NCBI GenBank assembly: GCA_000002445.1
Contig: CM000208.1
Span: 3,168,001-3,232,000 of the forward strand
Source of the DNA: Trypanosoma brucei
Taxonomy: Eukaryota
DNA: 64,000 nucleotides
Direction: 5' to 3'
Position 1 is the stretch's first letter, and each line of letters begins with the position of its first letter. The notes under the pieces are model-generated. The model was not told where the DNA came from, searched no databases, and worked only from the letters and a program-made list of their open reading frames with translations. Positions 1-55,347 of the stretch are shown in pieces. A program made the translations under genes and the position numbers.

Positions 1-3000
1 TGAATAACTTTGGAATCATTGACACTGCAAGCGCCCTCATTTCATCGTTGTCACTGCCCAACGACTCGATTGCGGCTCGAAACACCGCAGAGAGGCTTTC
101 GACAGATTCCGTAGAAATACCTAAACCAAAGGCTTCCGCAGCAGCTAGGGCACCGAGCTGCGTAGCTGGTGCCCGCAGCGCCTTCTGCCACTGCTCCTGT
201 GGTATGTGCTCATACCCCTGACTGAGACCCGCAATGAACTTCTGATACGACTCGCTGGCACCATCCAGCCTCTGCACTAGAAAAGCTAGGAGTATTTTAC
301 CCGTGTCAGGAATGTACCGCCGCATCTGGTCATCCGCTTCCTCCACATCGAGAATAGTGTCCAAAAGTTCCAAGTTGTGCTGCACGTATTTGCTCTGTCG
401 GTTGAGGTACCTGAATATAATCTCGAGTGCCACATTGGGTTTAACCTTTACCACCTCTACGACACCCCGAACGGAGGTTTCGAGTTGGGCCTCTGTGGCA
501 CTTTCAATAAGACCAGGTCCAACGATCTTTGAAACCTTCGCGAAGAGTTCACGGGCGCATTGCTGTACCTGAGGATCTTTCTCCTGCATACCTGGCAAAA
601 CACACCCCACAATCTGTCCCCCCATACCAATAAGACGTCGGCCGTCGACGTATCCAACAACACAAGTGAGACAAGTAAGAGCACCAAGCTTACTTCTGCG
701 GTCGTCTTCCTTGTAGCGGTCGCACAGAGTGTCAATGAATGGTTCAATCATCTCGCTGAGGCGCGACGTGAATTCGATGGTCTTATTCGCCATCTCCGCA
801 CAATCTGGATTTTCCGATGGGGCGTATATGACCAAAAGGTCGATCAAACCGCTGAAAATTTTTTTGACAGCTCCACATGGACTTGCCACACATGCCTGCC
901 ACGCGTTGTTAGACTCTGTTCGCACGTTAAGATTGTGTTCGTTACGGCCACAGAAAATGGCTGACAAAAGTCGCACAAATCCCTCAGTACCAAGGGCCTC
1001 TTCAAGAGCTCCTAGAACGGATATTCCGCGCTTCTCAACACTGCGAGCGGATTCCACCTGTAGGATTTCCATGGCTCCCGTATCGTCGTCCGCTGCCGGC
1101 TCACCGTTGGTTTGTTCGTCTTCTTTTCCTCCCTTCTCACCATCCTCAGGACCGCGTTCCTTGACCGACTGAACACGCATTTTCTTTCGTATGTTCTGTA
1201 CAATGTGAAGGAGTAACTTTGATGTTAGCAACAGGGAGCTGTGGCGCAACGTTGAGACCTCACTCAACACACCGTTCATCAACGGTTCAAGAACGAGAGC
1301 CAGATTTCGCGTGCCGTATAGGTTTATGATGCTTGAGCCTGCTGTCAATGCTACGTCACGAACACGGTCTGAAAAGTGGGAAAGACCTTCCAGAACCCAC
1401 GGAAATGCCATTGGCAGAAGTTGCTGAAAGGTTGTTGGGTTGAGGGTGGAAGGGGCGTACACTACAATGTGCAAGAAACCTTCCCTCACTGGTGGTCGTT
1501 CGTCAAGCATGCCAGTTTCAATAACTGCAAATGAGTCGTAGAGGACGGCGTCACCACAGCTTTCTACAATTTCAACAAAAACTTGCGCAGCTCCCGCTTT
1601 CTCAACACTGCTACCGTGCGACTTGTGCAGGTTTGAAAAGCACCACGCCACGATTTCATCAACAAGGGTACCGCCGATTGCAGCTGCGAGGGCGGCAATC
1701 GCTTTTGCGCTGGTGGTGCGAGTCTCTGTTTTGGGATCCTCTGCAGCCTCCTCCAACAGCGAGACGAGTTGTTGACAGTATGGCTTGAGTGACTGGGTGT
1801 CGTTGACGAGGTTTACCATTGATGCAACAATCTGCGCCGCTTTCGGCCGTGTGTGAGGCATCTGGTTACTGAGTCCGCGGGAGATAATAGGAATGATGAG
1901 AGCAAGTGAGGCCGGATCTACAGCGTTCACAAAGCGTGTGTAAAGCAGAGTATCCAGCGCATTTTCGGTTTCAGTATTAGGTGAGCGAAGGGCGGCGAGA
2001 ATGACTTCCACGTGCTCTCGGATTTCAGTATTAGATACGACACCAGCAACCCGCCGCAAGGCATTCATGGCTGCTGCCGACACGTTGTGGTTGACGTCGA
2101 ACAAACAGGCATTAATATGCTTCGTAATCTCTGGAAGTGTTGCTGCTAACTGCTTAGGTGAACAAAACGCAACATAACCTATGAAGTTAAGTGGCGGTAT
2201 GCGCATCTTTGCCTGATCCGCCGCGAGACCCTTCACTAGTCGAGGTATTAGTTGCCTCAAACCCACTGCGGTAAGAGAGCTAACCATCAACCGCGAGGCA
2301 TCATCAGCGCATTCAGACACCTTTTGATCCTTGTCGGCAACGCCCTCCAGCAACCCACTAGACATCGCAAGCGCATAGGGTTCAAATTTCGGGCCCATAA
2401 CTTCGGACAATACTTCAAGCAAAACCATTACACCCGAACGCTCGGCCTGTTTTTCACGCATAGATGCCTGCATCGTTTCCAATATGTTGTAGCGGCGCAG
2501 CGAAGTGAGTCCAAGTCCATGCAAAACACCGGCAACACCGTATGCATGTGCCTTTTTCTTGATGTATGAACCAGAGTGAAGAACCTGCTTCAGACACTTT
2601 TGAACAAACTCATCCAACTGGGGCAGCGAACACGCATCCTTGTTCTTTGTTACTTCAACCATCGAGTCACACACCGTGCGGTGAACCATTGCGGAGGTCG
2701 AATTATTGAGCGTGCTCCCTTGTTGCACAATTATAGACTCCAACAAAGAGTTTTCCTTCAGACGGCAGCCAATAATCGTTAACCACACGGTCGAAATGGC
2801 GAGGTAGAGCTCTTTATGAACTGGAGTTATATCCTTTGGTGGCTTACTTAAACGTACCTGCAGAGTTTGTGACATCGCTTTAAGGACAACCAATGAGCAG
2901 TCGTGTAATACGACGCGCCCACAGGAAAGCACCACGAGCATAAAGGGTTCCGTATTTGGTGACTCAACGATAGTGCATAAATAAAGAAGAACGTCTTGGA

Positions 3001-6000
3001 AAGCATCGCCTTTCAATGACGAAGAAAGTACCTCAATAGCCACAACCGACCCTAACCCCCCAATTTTGCAAATGTCCTTGAGCCATGAACGTTGCTGAAC
3101 ATCCGTTGTATTGGGTAATAGAAAGAGCTCGCGCATTGATGCGCTTATGCGAGTTGCGTGGTGTTTTTGTTGCTGACCGTAGGCTTGCAAAAAATAAGTG
3201 AGATCATTCCAGTCTGTCGGGCAAAGAGTAAAAGGGTGGCTTGAGTTTTGGGTGATACCCCGCATTGACCTTACAACATCCGTAGAGGAGTCATGAAGAA
3301 ACACCGCAGCTAGGGTTAAGGCACGACGGCAAGTCGAAAAGTGTGAAAACCTATGATATGCTGCCGCGGTTACTTCTTTCACTGTGTCTACCTGGTTGAA
3401 GAACCCCAGCTCCAGAGCAACAAGATGAGAAGTGGGAATCATTGCCATCAAAAGGTTGATCCCCTGTTGCACACTCTTAAACAGCGAAGGAAACCTCTGC
3501 AATATCGTGTACAGCAACTGTAGCGTCTCCGTCGGCTGCGGTAAGTTTGCCTGACCAATGTTCTGAATCAACACACCCATGATTTGGTGTTGAGTTGCGA
3601 GGGGAATTGTTGTACGAACAGCTTGGCTTCCACGACCGGCTTTGAATGCTACATGTGAGAACGGGAGCAGCACCACGAACAGCGGGGGAGGGAGCATTTT
3701 TGTCATTGACTGACGCAAATACGTCGCCATAGTAGAAACACGAGAAACATCGTCTACAGAGAGTGAGGCTTTTCCCTCTAACTCAGCAACCGTTCTGGAC
3801 ATGCCCTCAGCTATGTGTGCAAACGCTGTTCGTGAAAGGAGTCCAGCAATAGCATCAACAAGCAACCGCTCCAGTACTTCTGGCACATCGTTTCCACTCA
3901 ATGTTTCCTGCAAATAGGGAAAAAGTACCGCCACGCACTCGAGGGGGAAGTCGCCTGACGTGCCTAGAGTACGAACAGTCACAAGGGCAGTTTTCCGCTG
4001 TAACAGAATATCCTCAATAACCCTGCTGTGCTTTTGGATCTCTTTGCGGAGCTCCTCCCGACCCTTCTCAAGTGCGGCGGCATCCCTTCTTTTCATATCC
4101 TCAAAGTCATCCTCGGCCATGCCTTTGGGTGGTTTGGAGGGATAAGTTTTTAACAACTGCCGCTCTCGCAACGTCTTTTCCTCGTATTGCAACATTGCCG
4201 CCGGGGACGCAGCGGCTATCGCCCGGTCTCGCATATCCAAGGCAAGCATATACTCCACTGACTCTTTGACTGCATCAAGGAGCTTGTTAAAAATTATTTG
4301 TGACGAAGCAAACCCGGTCCTAGTTCCTAGGAGTAACACCAAACCGCGACTCGCCGCCGTGCGTAAGTGGACAGATTCACTGAAGTACCCACAGAGCCCA
4401 TCAACAAGTGCATCGTGGTGCAAAACCAGGAGATGTCTGTGTTCTCCGCTGAAGAGCGAATCAAATAGCCGCCGCTGGACAACCTTGGAGCTTGTCCGCA
4501 TGCGTCCCAAGAGCGAGTCGTTGTCACAGAAATAGTAAGGGTCTTCACCCTGAATATGATCATGGCCACAACAAATCACAAGTTCCCGAAGCGCGGTAGG
4601 AACTGCCATCTTGGCAGTGTGTTTTAGTAACGCCGAGGCGACGGGTAGTAGCGCACCGCAGGCAGAATTCGACAATATGTTTGTTTTTTCTTTCTCCTCC
4701 AGCCCGAATACAACATGGGTAACACTGTCCCATAACGCAATAGCGGCACTTGCATCACTTGCAAGATCCTCTACAGAGTATGAGAGGCGTCGGCGCAGTA
4801 ACCCACTTCTGTGCGTAAGAAGAAGAGCCATTGGAGAAAAAACAAATACGTTTGCGAGCGCAACCGCCGTCTCCGCGAGGGCATCCAACTCGTCTCTACT
4901 CTCCCCAATCCGTGAAACCACATCAGCCCGGCACAAGACTGTGCAAAGTTTAGGGGAAACTTTTGCTTTACTTTCTACAAGAGACCGGAGCGCTATGAAG
5001 GCAGCTGGCCTATAGGCATCCACTTCCTCACAACTATCAAAGAGAAGTTCATTCAACCCCTCGATAACATCGCTCGGTGCCCGCTTGGGGGAAATATACA
5101 GTGCCATGGCCCATCTCACCTCCTCATTACCTTTGGCACTTTTGAGCGCGGCCCGCATTTCGTCCACGACACGGTTCTCCACACCACTGACCTGAAGCAG
5201 CCTCCAGGCTGCTTTAACAGCATCTGCAGAATGACTCACCAAATCTCTCTCTATAATCTTTACAATGTCTTCCTGACGGACCCTTAAGCGAGACGTTTCG
5301 GATGATGCACGCAAAACAGCACTGGTGAGGATCATGATCGATGCCTTTTCCGTTGAAGCGCAGCATTTTTGCATAACGGCAGCGGCGGCCCGAACAAACA
5401 AGGGTAACAATTCTTCCTCCATCCCTATTCCAAGAAAAATCAAACAGTAGAGTGTTTCCCATTCCTGTGCGACCTCGGGGGTAAGTATCTTCCCTTTGTT
5501 CACAAACGGCATGAGCAACTGGAAGAAGCTGTCTTCACCATGGGTCATGAAATAGCCTCTCTTGTCACTCACAGGAAGCGCCAGGATGACAGTCAGGTAA
5601 TCGCGGGTGCTGTTTAACGAACAATTAGTGAGTCCCATGTTGTAAAGACATAACTGTATCACCTCTTCCGCTTTATCGACCAGCAACGATCCGGGAACAG
5701 GCCTCTTTCCAAGAAGGTGAAGCATCAGCATCGGTGAGCTCTTCACTGTCTGCTGCACTGTTTCCTTCGAAATAGGGCATGACCACGAGGGAAACACGGA
5801 CAGCGTCAATGCTTGCGGTGGTGGAAGTTTCTCAATGAGGGCACCCCATTTCTCGCGCAAGTGGTTGCAACTCTTTTCCAGAATCCGCCGAAGCCGCCGC
5901 ATGGGACCACACAACAATACGTTTTCATTGCCAACGGGTATGTTGAGGGACAAACTTGAAAAAGAGTGTTTCCTACACGCTGCATGAAGCTTGGCGTAGT

Positions 6001-29043: not shown

Positions 29044-29891
29044 ACGCAAGTACGAGCAAGCACAACAAACACCTGGTGGCACAATAAGGAATATCACAGG
29101 GAAGAAACTAGAAGAAAGGAGGGTAGACGGTGTGTACACAAGGCACCGACATACTCGCCTCGCCTCTTGGAAAGCCACCACCCACAACGCACCACCAAAA
29201 AGGCATGCCGTGGCTACGGGCCTCCTCAGAAATAGAAGGTAACACTGAAGAAACAGCAATGGGGGAAATTACTGCAGGTACGTGTCAGTCAAGTACAGCA
29301 CTCTCGCTGAAAGCGTTGGTATCAATCAGCACTAAGTTGTCACTCAGTCGCGCACTACAACTTCTGTCCTCATACACAGCCATGCAGCAGAACATCTCCA
29401 CCACATGTATCACCCCACAATGCATGCAAAGCACGGTGTGGGGCGGTTGTATGGGCGTCGATACAGCAACAGTGAATAAAGATGCAGTGTAAACACACAT
29501 AGCAGGAAGGAGTTAGGGACGGTAAATGCCGGTACAATCAACACCGCTGCTCAACATTTGTACACATTCAAGAGTCCTCATTGGATGTGTCGGTCCGCCT
29601 GTCGTTAGACAGTTTCTCATCGTCGCAGCGGTGTCGTGCCCATAACATGTCACATTTCGCATAGTCCAATGATCCAAGAGTCAAAAGAGAAGGGAAAAAA
29701 GAGTAACGAGGGGAAGAAGGGAGGAATCAGATAGATTGGTAAACGCAAAGTTGGTTTCTCGTTCATTATGGGTCGTCAGTGCGCACTACAACTGCAGTCA
29801 CATCACGCAGAGTAAACGCTATTGGAATATCTCCGCCTCCTGAAATCGCCCCACAACGATTTCTGCACATGTGAGGCGTTAGACAGAGACG
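29044..29891. repeat. Direct repeat copy 1 (848 bp), about 99 percent identical to 34952-35799
   Basis: Read by eye, the two copies match base for base over roughly 848 bp apart from a handful of substitutions. Unique flanks begin at both ends. ORFs inside the repeat (for example 29130..29492) are duplicated verbatim in copy 2 and are probably spurious. Confidence 0.9.
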
Positions 29892-34951: not shown

Positions 34952-35799
34952 ACGCAAGTACGAGCAAGCACAGCAAACACCTGGTGGCACAATAAGGAAT
35001 ATCACAGGGAAGAAACTAGAAGAAAGGAGGATAGGCGGTGTGTACACAAGGCACCGACATACTCGCCTCGCCTCTTGGAAAGCCACCACCCACAACGCAC
35101 CACCAAAAAGGCATGCCGTGGCTACGGGCCTCCTCAGAAATAGAAGGTAACACTGAAGAAACAGCAATGGGGGAAATTACTGCAGGTACGTGTCAGTCAA
35201 GTACAGCACTCTCGCTGAAAGCGTTGGTATCAATCAGCACTAAGTTGTCACTCAGTCGCGCACTACAACTTCTGTCCTCATACACAGCCATGCAGCAGAA
35301 CATCTCCGCCACATGTATCACCCCACAATGCATGCAAAGCACGGTGTGGGGCGGTTGTATGGGCGTCGATACAGCAACAGTGAATAAAGATGCAGTGTAA
35401 ACACACATAGCAGGAAGGAGTTAGGGACGGTAAATGCCGGTACAATCAACACCGCTGCTCAACATTTGTACACATTCAAGAGTCCTCATTGGATGTGTCG
35501 GTCCGCCTGTCGTTAGACAGTTTCTCATCGTCGCAGCGGTGTCGTGCCCATAACATGTCACATTTCGCATAGTCCAATGATCCAAGAGTCAAAAGAGAAG
35601 GGAAAAAAGAGTAACGAGGGGAAGAAGGGAGGAATCAGATAGATTGGTAAACGCAAAGTTGGTTTCTCGTTCATTATGGGTCGTCAGTGCGCACTACAAC
35701 TGCAGTCACATCACGCAGAGTAAACGCTATTGGAATATCTCCGCCTCCTGAAATCGCCCCACAACGATTTCTGCACATGTGAGGCGTTAGACAGAGACG
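34952..35799. repeat. Direct repeat copy 2 (848 bp), about 99 percent identical to 29044-29891
   Basis: Same evidence as copy 1. The two copies lie 5908 bp apart in direct orientation and flank the hypothetical gene 30396..32450 and the PAP2 gene. Confidence 0.9.
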
Positions 35800-48714: not shown

Positions 48715-51399
48715 CTACATGTTGTTAAGAATTTTCCACATTGGATAAAGTAAAAGAGTCATTAGTCCCTCTTTTCGTGCCTTCATCGTGCACAAGAGCA
48801 AAACTAACACAAGCCACTCCTCGTGCAGGCGCAGTGCCTCCTCCACCACGTCGTCCTCTGGCCTCCCGCAGTGTTCCGTGGAATCACCCGGCAAACTCAA
48901 GGTGAAGGGCGCGCGGTGGCGATTTAGAGACTCTATCAGCTCTTGCTTTTGATCCTCAGCACGTCGCTCCGCGGTCATCCGCCTCCTGGTATCACCCGAC
49001 AAAACTTGAGAAGATGAAAAGTCGCCTGTTGAAGTACTTCCCTCCACAGCTGGTTGCATCCACAGGCGCAACTGAGCACCAGATAGTGTTTCAGGGTGCA
49101 TTGTACAAGTCTGTGCAATCAACTTCGCCGGCCGGCGAAGTACCTTGTTAATATCATTATAAGGATAATTGTCAGACATGAAGCCGATGATATTCTGCAC
49201 GTACAGCAGTAACGACTGGAATGCATAAGCCGGGGAATACTCAGGACTTGTGAGCCCTACGCAATCTGAGTGGTTTAGACGGCGAACGACGCCCGCTAAG
49301 GCGTCAAATTCATCATTTATAAGCGACGCGGCGCCGGGGTAGTACTGTTCCATTAGTGTACTGCCGTGCTCTTGCCAGTTGAAATTACCGCTTCTCAACG
49401 TGCAACCGCCAACGTTAGAGCCCTTGATTCGCTTCTCACTAACTATATCGTCAACTCCTGTGTATCGTGTAAAACTGATGTCAGCGTTGTGGTGGTGCTC
49501 ATCCCCAACGACCACACAAGGGGAAAGCAAGGCAGCCAGCGCCGGTGGTAGCGCGGTAAATGAACATAAATCATTTGGCACGAAGAGTCCCATAACCAAA
49601 CTGCATAACGACAGCGTTTCGGCCACAATGGTTGACACTTGCATGAGGCCATGAATGCTCCATCCTGCGCTCATGGCTGTACGAATGTCAACATCAGATA
49701 TTTGCCATGGGACGTGGGTTGCGATTGCTATAAAGCGTTGAAGGGCCTGCAACTTTGGTGGTGGTCCGTCCCGGAGCCAAGACCTTGCTGTTCCACAGAC
49801 TCCACCCTCCTTTCCACCCACTCTCATAAGCAAGGCACCGAATCGGCACACAAGATACTCACATTTCTGACGGCAGGCCGTCATGAATGCCACCATCAAA
49901 CGTTCAGAATTCAACAGCGGGCCATTCCCGAAGAAAACATAGATAAACGTGCTGTGGTGAGCCTTAAGAAATTCAGGACATGCCGAGAGGACGTAGTAAT
50001 ATTGTGGCAATTCGCCCATATCTGTGAATATACGATACAGTAGGTCGCGACGTCCGCTGCACAGTGACCGCAGGGAGGCGATACTGCAATGAGAAAGTGC
50101 CTCCCATAACGCTTGTTGTGTCGCGTCCTTTTCCTTTGAAGCCTCTTTGTTCGCTAGCTCCCCATCGATTGCACCGCAGCTACTTGTCCTACCTTTCGAT
50201 AAGGTCCCGAGGCGCCGGCGGGCCAGGGACGGTGTTGAGGAGGAGGATGGTAGGGAGCAACGAGGCATCGTACCCGCGGTAGAGACTGACTTCTGCAATG
50301 CGTCCAACTCCCTAGAAAGCCTCCCGGAGAGCAGCTGCCCCAGAGTCGGTAGAGCCGCAGTTGGAGAAGGAGCTACGTACCATTTGACATCGGTAGCTTC
50401 GTGGAGACGTGGAGAAAGTACCTCATCCCAATTTAACCTTACCAGTTTACCCTCCACAACGTAGAGAAAGTTGGCGTTCGATTCCATCCCCCAGAGCTCA
50501 CTCACCTGTGTTTCCCTAATTGTTCTTGCGTCGACCTGTGACAGACATTTCAATATTCTACCGCGTAAACCTGAGGGGCATATGGCCTTCCCCAAAACAT
50601 CTGCGATAATTAGTTGCAGACAATTGGCTAACGACTGACATGGACAAGAGAATGCAATCCCAATGAGACAACAGAACGCCATCTCCGCCTCGTGGAGACT
50701 TCCAGCATAGGACCTTTCACCACGTACAGCGTCTCCGGTGTGGTAATCACCACTCATAAGACTTGTGCCGTCTTCACTACTATAAGCCAGAGGAAAGGAG
50801 CGAGATACACTCTCCACGGTAGGTTTACGAATTTTACACTGCTGCGCAAGCCGTCCGTCATCGTCACACGCAGACACGTCGATGCCGATAGAAGAAGAAT
50901 GGTGGCCAACCCCGCTATGGCTACCCCTCGACACTGCTTGGCAACTCTTTAACCCGTTCTCCGCGTCCCGCAGCAACATACATGCTCTTTGCAGGTAGCG
51001 AGAAGTGCACTTAATCAACCCAGCCGGCACGCAGCCAACGTCACACTCAGCTACTAATGCACTCAATTGTTTTGCCATATCGTCAGCGAAGCCAAGAGTT
51101 GCAGGCTGAGCTCCAGATGGGCCCAGCGCATCGCACTGCACCGCGTCTTCAGAAGGTACACGAAAGAGCACCCTCAACGAATGGTTTTGGTGGGCACTTT
51201 GTTCTGATTGTGCCGCATGCTGATGGGCTTTACGCTCCAGCGCGTAGGTGTCACCAATATGTCCCAAAACAGAAGTTATGAGCTCTGCAAAAGACGGACA
51301 TGCCAAGTGGTTGTCTGCTTCCGAGCTATCCTGTCCCTCTGGAAGCATCGTGTTGGGCTGCATGTTGCTACGCAGTAGAGCAAGGTGTAAGCAGGTCAA
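48715..51399 (-). CDS. Large protein (894 aa) with Sestrin/PA26-like core region
   Basis: Residues about 455-610 (nt about 49570-50037) read YYYVLSACPEFLKAHHSTFIYVFFGNGPLLNSERLMVAFMTACRQKCEYLVCRFGALLMRVGG...KLQALQRFIAIATHVPWQISDVDIRTAMSAGWSIHGLMQVSTIVAETLSLCSLVMG. As I recall it, this parallels the Sestrin core (..GDGPLP..RHYIAIMAAARHQCSYLV...GGD...KLR.LNE.NKLLAHRPWLITKEHI..LL..GE.SWSL.EL..A.VLL.H.HSL.SF). The rest has no recognised domain. Confidence 0.5.
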   Translation of the reverse strand: MTCLHLALLRSNMQPNTMLPEGQDSSEADNHLACPSFAELITSVLGHIGDTYALERKAHQHAAQSEQSAHQNHSLRVLFRVPSEDAVQCDALGPSGAQPATLGFADDMAKQLSALVAECDVGCVPAGLIKCTSRYLQRACMLLRDAENGLKSCQAVSRGSHSGVGHHSSSIGIDVSACDDDGRLAQQCKIRKPTVESVSRSFPLAYSSEDGTSLMSGDYHTGDAVRGERSYAGSLHEAEMAFCCLIGIAFSCPCQSLANCLQLIIADVLGKAICPSGLRGRILKCLSQVDARTIRETQVSELWGMESNANFLYVVEGKLVRLNWDEVLSPRLHEATDVKWYVAPSPTAALPTLGQLLSGRLSRELDALQKSVSTAGTMPRCSLPSSSSTPSLARRRLGTLSKGRTSSCGAIDGELANKEASKEKDATQQALWEALSHCSIASLRSLCSGRRDLLYRIFTDMGELPQYYYVLSACPEFLKAHHSTFIYVFFGNGPLLNSERLMVAFMTACRQKCEYLVCRFGALLMRVGGKEGGVCGTARSWLRDGPPPKLQALQRFIAIATHVPWQISDVDIRTAMSAGWSIHGLMQVSTIVAETLSLCSLVMGLFVPNDLCSFTALPPALAALLSPCVVVGDEHHHNADISFTRYTGVDDIVSEKRIKGSNVGGCTLRSGNFNWQEHGSTLMEQYYPGAASLINDEFDALAGVVRRLNHSDCVGLTSPEYSPAYAFQSLLLYVQNIIGFMSDNYPYNDINKVLRRPAKLIAQTCTMHPETLSGAQLRLWMQPAVEGSTSTGDFSSSQVLSGDTRRRMTAERRAEDQKQELIESLNRHRAPFTLSLPGDSTEHCGRPEDDVVEEALRLHEEWLVLVLLLCTMKARKEGLMTLLLYPMWKILNNM

Positions 51400-52316: not shown

Positions 52317-53144
52317 TTACGCAGCCTCCTTTAGACACTTAGGGTCCCAACCAACGGCAAACCAGGGATGGGAAATGATACCCTCAAGGGTGATACGGTT
52401 TTGGGGGTCCACAGTCAACATGCGCTTGACTAAATCCCTTACAGCCTCAGACACCTGCCGCAGCATAGCGTACTCACCGCGCTTGACTTTCTCAAGAAGG
52501 GATTTCTGGTTACGATCCTCAAAGGGGAGTTTTCCAGCGAGCATGACGTAAAGAATGACACCACAACTCCAAATATCAGCGGCGAATGCGTTGTGGTCGC
52601 TTCCACTAAGTGCCTCGGGAGCAATATAGTTCGGGGTCCCCATAGCCCTGCTGGAAGGGAGGTCACTGTCGCCACTGCCATTGCTGCAAAAGCCAAAATC
52701 ACTAATTTTCAGCACTCCGACAGCATCAAGCAGAAGATTTTCGGGCTTCAAGTCACGGTGAGCGAACCCCTTGCCGTGGCAGTGGTGAACGCCGGCGATG
52801 AGCTGTTGGAAGTAGCGTCGTGCAGTCGGTTCGTCAAAGCGTTTCGCAGCAACGATTTTGTCAAACAGCTCACCGCCCGATACGAACTCTAACACCAGGC
52901 AGTAGTGAGTTGGCGTTTCCTTGAAATCGTGAAATGCAATTATATTTTCATGCTTAAATACGCGCATGGCCTCTACTTCCCGCATCAATTGGCCTTCCAT
53001 TTCTTCCTTTCGCAGTTTAGCCTTGTCTATGATCTTAACTGCCCACCTCCGTCGTTGCTCATCCGTTGCCAAGCGGACGGTGGAGAAGGTACCAGATCCA
53101 AGTTTTTGGGAAACCGTGTACGGTGGAAGAACAAAATTTTCCAT
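52317..53144 (-). CDS. Ser/Thr protein kinase, catalytic domain only (CAMK-like), tandem copy 1
   Basis: GSGTFSTV (glycine loop), VAVK-type AVKIIDK, HRDLKPENLLLD, DFG, GTPNYIAPE and DIWSCGVILY are all present. The 275-aa product ends ...HPWF.... Confidence 0.85.
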   Translation of the reverse strand: MENFVLPPYTVSQKLGSGTFSTVRLATDEQRRRWAVKIIDKAKLRKEEMEGQLMREVEAMRVFKHENIIAFHDFKETPTHYCLVLEFVSGGELFDKIVAAKRFDEPTARRYFQQLIAGVHHCHGKGFAHRDLKPENLLLDAVGVLKISDFGFCSNGSGDSDLPSSRAMGTPNYIAPEALSGSDHNAFAADIWSCGVILYVMLAGKLPFEDRNQKSLLEKVKRGEYAMLRQVSEAVRDLVKRMLTVDPQNRITLEGIISHPWFAVGWDPKCLKEAA

Positions 53145-53887
53145 ATTACCTCTTTATAATGTCTATATCTTATTCTTGTTCGGCTTTGACCATGCGAAAC
53201 AAGTCGAATTGCAGCCTGCAAGTGCGAGCTAGGAGAAAGGAAAGAAAGGACGAAGAAGAAAGAGTACCCAAATGTTTTTCTAAATTACCACCACACTCCC
53301 TCACCGACCAAACTTCACTATCAGCCGTTGCACGTGGAAGACGCGAGCGAGACGCTATTGCTAATCACATTCCGAAGCGCAACATTAGGAAAAAGGAAAC
53401 GTAAAAAAAAAAAGGAGAAATAGGAAGAGACAAAAGAAAGTGAGAAAACGGAAAAAAAAGAAGCGGAAGGTGCTCGTGGCACGCACCGAACAAAGTTTTC
53501 CGCAGAGAGACCTTTTTGAGAGCAGGAAGTTAATGCTTCGTCCCTAAGTATAGGTTTCAATACGCACCGTATTCGATGACATCATTTACTCCTTCTTCCC
53601 TTCGTCTCCCCTTCTCTGAAAACGGAACTAGAAAGGTAAAGAGGAAAAACGATTAAGACCCCTTATTGAACGGTTGCCCCGTAGAATTGTCGCCACAGGC
53701 GGTGGGGGAGGGTAGAAACATACCGTACAATCAAACAAGAAAGGGCAAAACCACTTGCAAAAAAAAAAAGACATAACTAATCACTTAAGTTAACGATCGC
53801 TGAGATGTCCGAAGGGAAGTGAAACGAGCGGACGGATATAACAACACCAACTAGCCACCAGGAATCAGCAGTTCGGGACTCTCTTTA

Positions 53888-53897
53888 CCCCCCCCCC
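53888..53897. repeat. C10 homopolymer
   Basis: cccccccccc lies in the intergenic gap between the two kinase genes. Confidence 0.8.
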
Positions 53898-54486
53898 TTC
53901 CTCTTTTAACGAGCAAACGCACACACATGTATAAATACATACATACACATGTATATATACATGTTGCGCCTTCACTGGAGGTTCCCAGTCCCGCAAAGAA
54001 CAAAAAAACAAGAAATATTGCGCACGCTACTCTTATTAACCACTCCTTTCTCTTCCCCAGAACACATATACTCGACTTCTTTCCTTCTCCGCTCGCCACT
54101 TAGCTCCACAGTTTTCGTTCTTCCTTCCTCAGAACATTTTTCATATTCTCCCAGTAGACACCTGCCACACCGTCCCCTGGGGTATCGCAATGGCAAAAGG
54201 GTGGCACAACGAAGATGATAGAAAGTGGAAACTTGGCTCTGGCAACAGAGAAACATATAACAAAGATAACAATGATAGAGAGTCGAGTCCCTGCACCTCT
54301 TCAAAACTCATAAACTAATCCCGCAAACTTTTTCGGTGAAATCAACCGGTTTCACCCCTTTCAGCCCACAAACAACCGTATGCACAAACACAACAAATAA
54401 CAAATATATATATATTTATTTATTTAAAAGCAGTAATACACACAACACAGAATAACTCCCAGAATAATCGGGAAGAAAGAGTACCA

Positions 54487-55347
54487 TCACGCCGACTCGT
54501 TCAGACACTTAGGGTCCCAATCAACGACAAACCAGGGATGGGAAATGATAGCCTCAAGGGTGATACGCTTCTTAGGATTTACGACAAGCATGCGCGCGAT
54601 TAAGTCCTTTGCTGCGTCTGACACGTGCCGGACCATGCTGTACTCGCCACGCTCGATCCGTGCAAGAAGATGTCTCATGCTCCGATCCTCAAAAGGAAGT
54701 CGTCCAGCGAGCATGACGTAAAGAATGACACCGCAACTCCAAATGTCAGCACAGAGACCGTTGTAGCCGCGCTCCATGAGGACCTCAGGTGCCACATAGT
54801 TGGGAGTGCCACACACTGTTTTTAGCAGGATGTCCTGCTGCCGGTTTCCGAGACCAAAATCACTAATTTTCAGCACTCCGACAGCATCAAGCAGAAGATT
54901 TTCGGGCTTCAAGTCACGGTGAGCGAACCCCTTGCCGTGGCAGTGGTGAACGCCAGCGATGAGCTGTTGGAAGTAGCGTCGTGCAGTCGGTTCGTCAAAG
55001 CGTTTCGCAGCAACGATTTTGTCAAACAGCTCCCCGCCCGATACGAACTCTAACACAAGATAGTAATGGTTCGCTGATTCGAGCACGTCGTGAAGATCAA
55101 TAACATTCCTATGTTTAATGGATCGCATTATAGCAACTTCACGAAGCATTTGATCCTCCATCTTTTCCTTCCGAAGTCGAGTTTTGTCTATGATCTTAAC
55201 GGCAAATTTCTTACCACCTTCATCTGTTGCCAACCTTACCGTTGAGAAGTTTCCGAACCCGAGTTTTTCCCCCAAACAATACGGTCCCAGCCGCACAGGA
55301 GGTGTCATGGCAGTGAAGCCCTCTGTTACACCGGTGTTCACCCTCAC
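54487..55347 (-). CDS. Ser/Thr protein kinase, catalytic domain only (CAMK-like), tandem copy 2 (paralog of 52317..53144)
   Basis: Same kinase motifs as copy 1. Residues YYLVLEFVSGGELFDKIVAAKRFDEPTARRYFQQLIAGVHHCHGKGFAHRDLKPENLLLDAVGVLKISDFG are identical in the two proteins. An alternative start is at Met14 (MTPPVRLG; 'cat' at 55306-55308). Confidence 0.85.
   Translation of the reverse strand: MRVNTGVTEGFTAMTPPVRLGPYCLGEKLGFGNFSTVRLATDEGGKKFAVKIIDKTRLRKEKMEDQMLREVAIMRSIKHRNVIDLHDVLESANHYYLVLEFVSGGELFDKIVAAKRFDEPTARRYFQQLIAGVHHCHGKGFAHRDLKPENLLLDAVGVLKISDFGLGNRQQDILLKTVCGTPNYVAPEVLMERGYNGLCADIWSCGVILYVMLAGRLPFEDRSMRHLLARIERGEYSMVRHVSDAAKDLIARMLVVNPKKRITLEAIISHPWFVVDWDPKCLNESA

What the first reader, a model, noticed from the sequence alone, without database searches (positions are those of the whole stretch)
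52317..55347. Tandem CAMK-like kinase paralogs sharing a roughly 200-bp near-perfect gene-conversion tract
Nucleotides about 52694-52895 and 54854-55056 are identical apart from two substitutions, and they encode the identical 71-residue block YYLVLEF...KISDFG (hinge through DFG). A second highly similar tract lies at the 3' ends (52330-52410 versus 54500-54580). The N-terminal and activation-loop regions are clearly diverged: copy 1 has an Asp/Ser-rich activation-loop insert FCSNGSGDSDLPSSRAMGTP, versus LGNRQQDILLKTVCGTP in copy 2. This mosaic is the signature of recent inter-paralog gene conversion constrained to the catalytic core, while substrate-proximal regions diverge.
Basis: seen in the sequence. 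Interest (0 to 1): 0.5.

Follow-up and report, generated by a model that had tools for sequence, protein, structure and literature searches.

The report
Gene conversion between tandem trypanosome kinases
Two neighbouring protein-kinase genes of the sleeping-sickness parasite Trypanosoma brucei keep copying their catalytic core onto each other, while three short regions that tell the two enzymes apart stay different; this is a clear new example of a process already well known in this parasite.

Summary
The window is T. b. brucei TREU927 chromosome 10, and the two genes are the annotated CAMK/CAMKL kinases Tb927.10.13480 (K1, 52317-53144, minus strand) and Tb927.10.13490 (K2, 54487-55308, minus strand).

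- **The tract:** K1 52693-52895 and K2 54854-55056 (203 nt) differ at 2 bases. The rest of the genes is about 50-65% identical with saturated synonymous divergence (dS 0.09 inside, 1.3 outside; permutation P<1e-5).
- **Shorter tracts:** one lies in helix F (48 nt) and one at the 3' end (65 nt).
- **Flanks:** UTRs and spacers share no similarity.
- **Other species:** T. congolense and T. vivax have the same K2-K1 pair. In each species the hinge-to-DFG tract is identical between the paralogues but differs between species, so homogenisation is recurrent (concerted evolution).
- **K1-specific islands:** three islands escape conversion in all three species: strands beta4-beta5, the activation segment (no T-loop threonine) and helix G.
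- **Strain differences:** in T. b. gambiense DAL972 the K2-like tract in K1 is 354 nt long and overwrites the K1 activation loop. One synonymous polymorphism is shared between the paralogues across strains.

It is a new member of a known kind, comparable to T. brucei tandem arrays, TbrPDEB1/B2 and the PGK genes. Interest is moderate to low.

The parts
52317..53144 (-). K1 = Tb927.10.13480, a CAMK/CAMKL protein kinase of 275 aa (XP_827832.1). This is the downstream, derived paralogue.
   Evidence: ORF. Pkinase domain E 5.7e-73. Exact match to the TREU927 protein EAN78720.1/XP_827832.1. The published RNAi primers for Tb927.10.13480 map to 52627-52646 and 53007-53026.
54487..55308 (-). K2 = Tb927.10.13490, a CAMK/CAMKL protein kinase of 273 aa. 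This is the upstream paralogue and has the ancestral-type sequence. The ORF continues to a GTG at 55347.
   Evidence: ORF. 100% identical to P0001. Orthologues start at the equivalent Met. It lies next to RPL10a = Tb927.10.13500.
52693..52895 (-). Conversion tract T1, K1 copy. It covers the end of beta5, the hinge, helix D, helix E, the catalytic loop and DFG (codons L83-G151).
   Evidence: 203 nt with 2 mismatches to 54854-55056. dS 0.087. Secondary-structure elements come from the AF2 model.
54854..55056 (-). Conversion tract T1, K2 copy.
52533..52580 (-). Conversion tract T2, K1 copy (helix F, ADIWSCGVILYVMLAG). The K2 copy is 54703-54750.
   Evidence: 48 nt with 2 mismatches. Third-position identity is 0.88 within the species against 0.38-0.56 between species.
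52333..52397 (-). Conversion tract T3, K1 copy (C-terminal ITLE..DPKCL). The K2 copy is 54503-54567.
   Evidence: 65 nt with 3 mismatches. In the matching C-terminal segment (RITLE to KCL), third-position identity is 1.00 within the species against 0.58-0.63 between species. Position 52378 is G in TREU927 K1 but K2-like in T. b. equiperdum and T. b. gambiense K1.
52581..52691 (-). K1-specific island I2: the activation segment from DFG+1 to the start of helix F (FCSNGSGDSDLPSSRAMGTPNYIAPEALSGSDHNAFA). It has no T-loop Thr. The K2 counterpart is 54751-54852.
   Evidence: 51% nt identity to K2. K1-type features are shared by T. congolense and T. vivax K1. Residues 153-168 have pLDDT<50. This island is overwritten by K2 sequence in T. 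b. gambiense DAL972.
52899..52943 (-). K1-specific island I1: strands beta4-beta5 (IIAFHDFKETPTHYC). The K2 counterpart is 55060-55104 (VIDLHDVLESANHYY).
   Evidence: Protein identity K1 versus K2 within a species is 0.33-0.40. K2 orthologues are 0.87-0.93 identical and K1 orthologues 0.53-0.67. Strands E71-76 and E80-86 in the model.
52482..52511 (-). K1-specific island I3: helix G (NQKSLLEKVK). The K2 counterpart is 54652-54681 (SMRHLLARIE).
   Evidence: Identity K1 versus K2 within a species is 0.2-0.4, while K1 orthologues are 0.8-0.9 identical. Helix 213-222 in the model.
53145..54486 (-). K2-K1 spacer (K2 3' UTR, K1 5' UTR). It is unrelated to the other flanks.
   Evidence: blastn finds K1/K2 homology only at 52319-53107 versus 54489-55268, and nothing significant in the flanks.

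Best explanation
K1 and K2 are an old tandem pair of CAMKL kinase genes, 2.16 kb apart in one polycistron of T. brucei chromosome 10. Non-reciprocal homologous recombination (interlocus gene conversion) repeatedly copies patches of coding sequence between them.

The patch from the hinge to the DFG motif covers the ATP-binding hinge, helices D and E, the catalytic loop and the Mg-binding loop. It is kept near-identical in every salivarian species examined. Helix F and the C-terminus are also homogenised.

Three short islands define K1:
- strands beta4-beta5;
- the activation segment, which lacks the T-loop threonine that K2 and other CAMKL kinases have;
- helix G.

These islands are retained in T. 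brucei, T. congolense and T. vivax. The likely reason is that conversions which overwrite them are removed by selection. Once the islands are about 50% diverged, they may also block heteroduplex extension.

The result is two enzymes with the same catalytic machinery but different activation and docking surfaces.

What is shown: the mosaic, its significance, its independent recurrence in each species, the conservation of the islands, and the strain differences. What is inferred: the recombination pathway, selection as the cause of the islands, and any functional difference between K1 and K2.
For: **The mosaic**
- 203 nt with 2 mismatches, against 50-65% identity beside it.
- dS is 0.087 inside the tract and 1.31 or saturated outside it. 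Permutation P<1e-5, including for third positions alone.
- Homology is confined to the CDS. UTRs and spacers are unrelated, so this is not a recent whole-unit duplication.

**The pair is old**
- The syntenic arrangement RPL10a-K2-K1-PA26 occurs in T. b. gambiense, T. b. equiperdum and T. vivax.
- K1- and K2-type proteins both occur in T. congolense.

**Conversion happened independently in each species**
- Tract nt identity is 0.99 between paralogues within T. brucei and within T. vivax, but 0.81-0.83 between species. Third positions are 0.96-0.97 within and 0.54-0.57 between.
- Species-specific residues are shared by both paralogues: HHCHGKG/DAVGVL in Tb, HYCHSKG/DATGEL in Tc, FEKIV/RFNEP/DANGML in Tv.
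- The longest exact K1/K2 match in T. vivax (199 nt) starts at almost the same gene position as the T. brucei tract.

**The islands behave in the opposite way**
- K1 orthologues resemble each other more than K2 of their own species. For I3 the values are 0.8-0.9 against 0.2-0.4.
- This holds even in T. vivax, where nearly all the rest of the gene is nucleotide-identical.

**Exchange is ongoing**
- T. b. gambiense K1 carries 354 nt of K2 sequence with 1 mismatch. That stretch includes the gambiense-type K2 allele at alignment column 490, and K1 sequence is retained on both sides.
- The C/T synonymous site 52794/54955 is polymorphic in both paralogues across strains.

**The mechanism is plausible**
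- T. brucei homologous recombination depends on substrate length and is impeded by mismatches (PMC1904282).
- Strain-specific conversion between a tandem pair 2379 bp apart is documented for TbrPDEB1/B2 (PMC2689650).
Against: - No read-level data were available. The extended T. b. gambiense tract rests on one Sanger draft assembly that was ordered against TREU927 (PMC2854126).
- This tract has already caused at least one public assembly artefact (L010).
- Selection on the islands is inferred from conservation across only three species. Mismatch-limited heteroduplex extension alone could hold boundaries in place for some time.
- The gambiense allele, if real, shows that loss of island I2 is tolerated in at least one lineage.
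- T. congolense could be examined only at protein level.
Confidence: 0.9

Rival explanations
1. The identical tract is an assembly chimera or collapse. Reads from one paralogue were used to build the consensus of the other.
For: The tract does cause assembly errors. The T. equiperdum OVI contig L010 (2169 bp) starts and ends at the same spacer position. It encodes a K1-5'/K2-3' chimeric protein, P0121. This is a graph loop closed through the 203-nt repeat.
Against: - The same 203-nt tract lies in both genes, with unique flanks, in three independent chromosome-scale T. brucei assemblies: TREU927, T. b. equiperdum GCA_003543875.1 and DAL972.
- Two T. vivax assemblies show the analogous 199-nt exact tract.
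- T. congolense proteins show the same pattern.
- The two copies differ at 2 positions, one of them a polymorphism seen in other strains.
Confidence: 0.02
2. There is no DNA exchange. The tract is identical because of extreme purifying selection, on the protein and on synonymous sites, for example an embedded RNA or DNA element or codon constraint.
For: The tract encodes the most conserved part of the kinase. Protein identity there is 0.91-0.94 even between species.
Against: - Third-position identity in the tract is only 0.54-0.57 between T. brucei and T. vivax and about 0.40 to T. grayi, so synonymous sites are free to change.
- Amino-acid substitutions specific to each species are shared by both paralogues.
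- Conserved-residue codons outside the tract differ in about half of cases: 23 of 47 in the N-lobe.
Confidence: 0.02
3. There was a single recent conversion event in T. brucei only, with boundaries set by chance. The divergent regions are then simply unconverted sequence with no selective meaning.
For: In TREU927 the tract has only 2 differences, comparable to between-strain divergence. Boundaries do move within T. brucei: 203 versus 354 nt.
Against: - The same tract is homogenised independently in T. congolense and T. vivax.
- Its 3' boundary falls directly after the DFG glycine in all three species: at the last base of that codon in T. brucei, and after that residue in the protein alignments of all three.
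- T. vivax has converted nearly the whole gene, yet spares exactly the three islands that distinguish K1 in the other species.
Confidence: 0.06

Closest known systems
Concerted evolution and gene conversion in T. brucei tandem gene arrays (Jackson 2007, PMC1855330; T. b. gambiense genome, Jackson et al. 2010, PMC2854126)
   Same: Tandem duplicates in a polycistron show sequence mosaics, within-species homogenisation and subspecies-specific recombinant copies. The methods match too: GENECONV-type tests and species-versus-paralogue tree comparison.
   Different: - Those surveys analysed arrays of at least 3 copies, according to PMC2854126, and this two-copy kinase pair does not appear in the passages retrieved.
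- They report that copies with remodelled UTRs tend to escape conversion and keep orthology. Here the UTRs are completely unrelated, yet internal CDS patches are still homogenised.
TbrPDEB1/TbrPDEB2 gene conversion (Kunz, Luginbuehl and Seebeck 2009, PMC2689650)
   Same: A closely spaced tandem pair (2379 bp apart there; tract copies 2161 bp apart here) of signalling enzymes in T. brucei. A strain-specific conversion replaces one functional module of the downstream gene with that of the upstream gene. This parallels K1 of T. b. gambiense acquiring the K2 activation segment.
   Different: The PDEB event is a single conversion unique to the Lister 427 lineage and was verified by PCR. The kinase tract is recurrent across species, and its strain variant has not been verified experimentally.
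Phosphoglycerate kinase genes PGKA/B/C of T. brucei (gene conversion described in the late 1980s; recalled from my own knowledge, and the papers appear in the reference list of PMC1855330)
   Same: Tandem paralogues whose cores are kept near-identical by conversion, while segments that give each isoenzyme its distinct properties remain different.
   Different: A different enzyme family. There the distinct segments determine glycosomal versus cytosolic location. For K1/K2 no functional difference has been shown.
CAMKL kinases (AMPK/Snf1, MARK, plant CIPK/SnRK3)
   Same: The best solved-structure matches of K2 are CIPK23 (E 5e-80), CIPK24, Snf1, SIK3, MARK and AMPK alpha. K2 has the T-loop Thr context LLKTVCGTPNY. 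Both genes are listed as CAMK/CAMKL in the T. brucei kinome RNAi library.
   Different: - Both proteins are bare kinase domains of 273-275 aa. They have no NAF/FISL, UBA, KA1 or AID region.
- K1 has no T-loop Thr. It has a Ser/Asp-rich activation loop that the model predicts to be disordered.

Membership tests
Eukaryotic protein kinase (Pfam PF00069) | A full-length Pkinase domain with the catalytic residues: VAIK Lys, helix C Glu, HRD and DFG. | tested here: met
   K1 E 5.7e-73 and K2 E 3.5e-74, each covering essentially the whole profile. The columns K37, E56, H129-R130-D131 and D149-F150-G151 are invariant in the alignment.
CAMK group, CAMKL family (AMPK-related) | The kinase domain is most similar to AMPK/Snf1/MARK/CIPK. 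| tested here: met
   The top PDB matches are CIPK23/24, Snf1, SIK3, MARK4 and AMPK alpha2 (E 5e-80 to 1e-65). Both genes are classified CAMK/CAMKL in Jones et al. 2014, supplementary file 3.
CAMK group, CAMKL family (AMPK-related) | An activating T-loop threonine, equivalent to AMPK T172 (position recalled from knowledge of the family). | tested here: inconclusive
   K2 and all single-copy orthologues have it (LL.TVCGTP). K1 of T. brucei, T. congolense and T. vivax lacks it (SSRAMGTP, FEKAMGTP, NGASMGTP). So the feature is met for K2 and not met for K1.
CIPK/SnRK3 (CBL-interacting kinases) | A C-terminal regulatory region with the NAF/FISL motif. | tested here: not met
   The proteins end about 10 residues after the kinase domain. 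Pfam reports only kinase-type families. The resemblance is limited to the catalytic domain.
Interlocus (non-allelic) gene conversion | A tract with far lower divergence than its flanks, including at synonymous sites, beyond what chance gives. | tested here: met
   dS 0.087 against 1.31. Permutation P<1e-5 for all sites and for third positions.
Interlocus (non-allelic) gene conversion | A patch-like (non-reciprocal) transfer, with paralogue-specific sequence kept on both sides and gene order unchanged. | tested here: met
   K1-type sequence lies on both sides of T1, and on both sides of the 354-nt gambiense tract. Synteny is intact.
Interlocus (non-allelic) gene conversion | Phylogenetic incongruence: the tract groups by species and the flanks group by paralogue. 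| tested here: met
   Segment identity matrices at nucleotide level and protein level.
Interlocus (non-allelic) gene conversion | Variation in tract extent, or polymorphism shared between the paralogues, among strains. | tested here: met
   203 nt in TREU927 and T. b. equiperdum against 354 nt in DAL972. A C/T site is shared between the paralogues. Caveat: each strain is a single assembly.
Interlocus (non-allelic) gene conversion | Read-level or experimental confirmation of each haplotype, and dependence on the recombination machinery. | not testable with these tools
   No reads and no genetics were available.

The most novel reading that the evidence does not exclude
K1 (Tb927.10.13480) may be a salivarian-specific CAMKL kinase that works independently of T-loop phosphorylation. 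Its catalytic core would be continually re-templated from K2 by gene conversion, while three selected islands (beta4-beta5, the activation segment and helix G) give it a different mode of activation and different partners. T. b. gambiense would then carry a natural loop-swap allele that has lost the K1-type activation segment, a fixed functional difference between subspecies. The locus would be a natural domain-swap series for mapping the specificity determinants of a kinase.
Probability: 0.3. Interest if true: 0.5.

Novelty: new member of a known kind. Interest (0 to 1): 0.33.

Why it matters
**Practical**
- The 203-nt identical tract means that RNAi or probes aimed at the kinase core hit both genes. 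The published kinome library used one fragment for both genes (window 52627-53026), and it spans the tract.
- Gene-specific work must target the UTRs or the islands.
- The tract also misleads assemblers. At least one public protein record (SCU65559.1) is a chimera produced in this way.

**Biological**
- The locus shows conversion and selection acting at sub-gene resolution. The catalytic machinery is shared, while the activation and docking surfaces are kept apart over the whole salivarian radiation.
- A candidate subspecies-specific variant exists in T. b. gambiense.

None of this changes current understanding of trypanosome genome evolution.

Tried and rejected
- **Third paralogue:** P0004 (79% identical to K2) first looked like a third gene on another chromosome. 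It is in fact the K1 gene of T. b. gambiense chromosome 10, at the syntenic position.
- **Second witness for the long tract:** I considered P0121 (T. equiperdum OVI) as independent support for a long-tract allele. I rejected it because its 2169-bp contig is a loop through the repeat.
- **Homology outside the CDS:** blastn with word size 7 found nothing significant.
- **Literature on the two genes:** a full-text search for Tb927.10.13480 and Tb927.10.13490 gave 0 papers. The IDs occur only in the supplementary tables of Jones et al. 2014, where the joint knockdown shows no growth defect and the earlier RIT-seq column reads 'Day 6 BSF'.
- **Jackson 2007 and 2010:** passages matching kinase and chromosome-10 gene IDs in these two papers do not mention the pair.
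- **Direction of transfer for T1:** this cannot be determined because both copies are homogenised in every species. Only the gambiense extension is clearly K2 to K1.
- **Is T. grayi copy b a K1 orthologue?** It shares EEQL.REVE and ET motifs with K1 but has a canonical activation loop. T. cruzi marinkellei and Leishmania have a single copy. The age of the duplication beyond Salivaria is left open.
- **T. congolense DNA:** it could not be fetched, because these proteins have no contig on record.
- **tRNA scan of the window:** it found nothing.
Full report
**What the window is.** All long ORFs in the window lie on the minus strand. The two ORFs of the finding are full protein-kinase domains (Pfam PF00069, E 6e-73 and 4e-74). 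The downstream ORF (52317-53144, here K1) is an exact match to the T. b. brucei TREU927 protein XP_827832.1/EAN78720.1, which lies on a 4.05-Mb chromosome. The upstream ORF (here K2) is 100% identical, from the ATG at 55308, to a 273-aa protein found in T. b. gambiense and T. b. equiperdum. The neighbouring RPL10a gene is Tb927.10.13500. The kinome RNAi library of Jones et al. 2014 lists Tb927.10.13480 and Tb927.10.13490 as CAMK/CAMKL. Its primers for Tb927.10.13480 map to window 53007-53026 and 52627-52646, inside K1. So K1 is Tb927.10.13480 and K2 is Tb927.10.13490. The closest solved structures to K2 are CIPK23/24, Snf1, SIK3, MARK and AMPK, which supports the CAMKL label. Neither protein has any domain beyond the kinase domain.

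**The observation.** At an offset of 2161 nt, 52693-52895 and 54854-55056 (203 nt) differ at two positions. A codon alignment gives a sharply mosaic profile. Nucleotide identity is 0.97-1.00 and third-position identity 0.9-1.0 inside the tract. Beside it the values are 0.33-0.67 and 0.2-0.5. Two shorter tracts exist. One is in helix F (52533-52580 versus 54703-54750, 48 nt, 2 mismatches). The other is at the 3' end (52333-52397 versus 54503-54567, 65 nt, 3 mismatches). NG86 dS is 0.087 in the main tract and 1.31 outside it, and it is saturated in the N-lobe and the activation segment. In 100,000 permutations of the variable sites, none reached the observed run, either for all sites or for third positions alone. 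The identical protein block has 69 residues (LVLEF..ISDFG), not 71. Homology between the two gene units stops at the CDS borders, and the UTRs and spacers are unrelated.

**Not an artefact, and not selection alone.** The tract is present in both genes in three independent T. brucei assemblies. An analogous 199-nt exact tract at the same gene position is present in two T. vivax assemblies. Synonymous sites of the tract are free to change between species. Third-position identity is 0.54-0.57 between T. brucei and T. vivax and about 0.40 to T. grayi. Constraint on the sequence therefore cannot explain the identity within a species.

**The pair is old and the homogenisation is recurrent.** The arrangement RPL10a-K2-K1-PA26 is shared by T. 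brucei subspecies and T. vivax. T. congolense has both protein types. In the tract, paralogues within a species are 0.99 identical at nucleotide level, while the same paralogue is 0.81-0.83 identical between species. Each species has its own amino-acid substitutions, and both of its paralogues share them. This is concerted evolution by repeated conversion after speciation.

The opposite pattern holds in three short islands:
- I1, strands beta4-beta5 (K1 52899-52943);
- I2, the activation segment from DFG+1 to the start of helix F (K1 52581-52691);
- I3, helix G (K1 52482-52511).

In these islands K1 resembles the K1 of other species more than the K2 of its own species. For I3 the identities are 0.8-0.9 against 0.2-0.4. 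T. vivax has converted almost the entire gene, yet it spares exactly these islands. The secondary-structure labels were checked on an AlphaFold2 model of K1 (mean pLDDT 87): strands 71-76 and 80-86, helix 213-222, and an activation loop (153-168) with pLDDT below 50. In all three islands K2 resembles the single-copy genes of Leishmania and T. cruzi marinkellei, so K1 is the derived copy. K1 of all three species lacks the T-loop threonine and instead has a Ser/Asp/Glu-rich loop that evolves quickly.

**Exchange within T. brucei.** In T. b. gambiense DAL972 the K1 gene is K1-type at both ends, but it carries 354 nt of K2 sequence with 1 mismatch. This stretch runs from the start of the tract through the activation segment to helix F. 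It includes the 9-nt length difference and a base typical of the gambiense and equiperdum K2 allele. The synonymous site 52794/54955 is C in TREU927 K1 and in equiperdum K2, and T in the other four copies compared. The polymorphism is therefore shared between the paralogues. In the 3' tract, TREU927 K1 has a private G at 52378, where K1 of the other two strains is K2-like. These differences fit ongoing conversion, but each rests on a single assembly per strain. A caution comes from the T. equiperdum OVI protein SCU65559.1, which has a K1 5' half and a K2 3' half. It sits on a 2169-bp contig that begins and ends at the same spacer position (window 53896 and 53889). That contig is an assembly-graph loop closed through the 203-nt repeat, not a real gene.

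**Mechanism.** The best-supported reading is non-reciprocal homologous recombination between the two copies, which lie 2.16 kb apart.
- High identity in the tract favours further exchange.
- The islands, about 50% diverged, should impede heteroduplex extension. T. brucei recombination depends on substrate length and is impeded by mismatches (PMC1904282).
- Selection is needed to explain why the same three islands persist in three species that have very different amounts of conversion.

The recombination pathway and the functional meaning of the islands are inferences. It is likewise inferred that K1 is regulated differently from K2 because it lacks the T-loop threonine and has a different helix G.

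**Comparison with what is known.** Mosaic tandem duplicates, concerted evolution and subspecies-specific recombinants are described for T. brucei arrays (PMC1855330, PMC2854126). A strain-specific conversion between the tandem pair TbrPDEB1/B2 is documented (PMC2689650). The PGK genes are the classical case, which I recall from my own knowledge. I found no text describing this kinase pair's mosaic. The kinome screen treated the two genes as one RNAi target, with no growth defect. The finding is therefore a new, clean member of a known kind.

**Verdict.** Confidence in gene conversion is 0.9. Interest is moderate to low (0.33).

Noticed in passing
window 29044-29891 and 34952-35799: An 848-bp segment is present twice at 99.5% identity, 5908 bp apart. 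It carries the H/ACA snoRNA cluster TB10Cs4 (H2, H3, H4; Rfam RF01862, RF01533, RF01534). Two protein-coding ORFs lie between the copies. This may be another homogenised repeat in the same polycistron.
   Followed up: partly
L010 (T. equiperdum OVI contig CZPT02000341.1, 2169 bp), gene 753-1571: The public protein SCU65559.1/XP_067077141.1 is a K1-5'/K2-3' chimera. Its contig starts and ends at the same point of the K2-K1 spacer, and its length is close to the 2161-nt repeat spacing. It is an assembly loop through the 203-nt tract. A separate 108-aa K1 fragment (SCU68990.1) is annotated on a 17-kb contig.
   Followed up: yes
L005 (T. grayi) 1672-5804; L006 (T. melophagium) 1544-5810; L007 (Leishmania sp.); L011 (T. 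cruzi marinkellei); L009 (Phytomonas): Copy number at this kinase locus varies among trypanosomatids.
- One copy in Leishmania sp. and T. cruzi marinkellei, still between RPL10a and PA26.
- Two copies in Phytomonas.
- Three copies in T. grayi, where copies a and c are 96% identical and b is divergent.
- Three copies in T. melophagium, as whole-unit repeats 99% identical including the spacers.

Mosaic identity within the CDS also occurs in T. grayi and Phytomonas.
   Followed up: partly
window 55309-55347: The K2 ORF extends 13 codons upstream to an in-frame GTG. Orthologues in T. congolense and T. vivax, and the database protein, start at the ATG at 55308.
   Followed up: yes
window 53920-53965 and 54399-54425: There are low-complexity CA/TA-rich stretches (cacacacatgtataaatacatacatacacatgtatatatacatg, and an A/T-rich run with (TA)n) in the K2-K1 spacer. 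Long purine-rich runs lie around 53388-53470. I did not examine whether they are UTR regulatory or trans-splicing/polyadenylation signals.
   Followed up: no
window 48715-51399 (minus strand): The gene directly downstream of K1 encodes a protein with a PA26 (sestrin-like, PF04636) domain. It is syntenic in T. vivax, Leishmania sp. and T. cruzi marinkellei. An AMPK-like kinase pair next to a sestrin-like gene is a curious neighbourhood, given that sestrin and AMPK are linked in animals (from my own knowledge). In a trypanosome polycistron, however, adjacency implies nothing about function.
   Followed up: no
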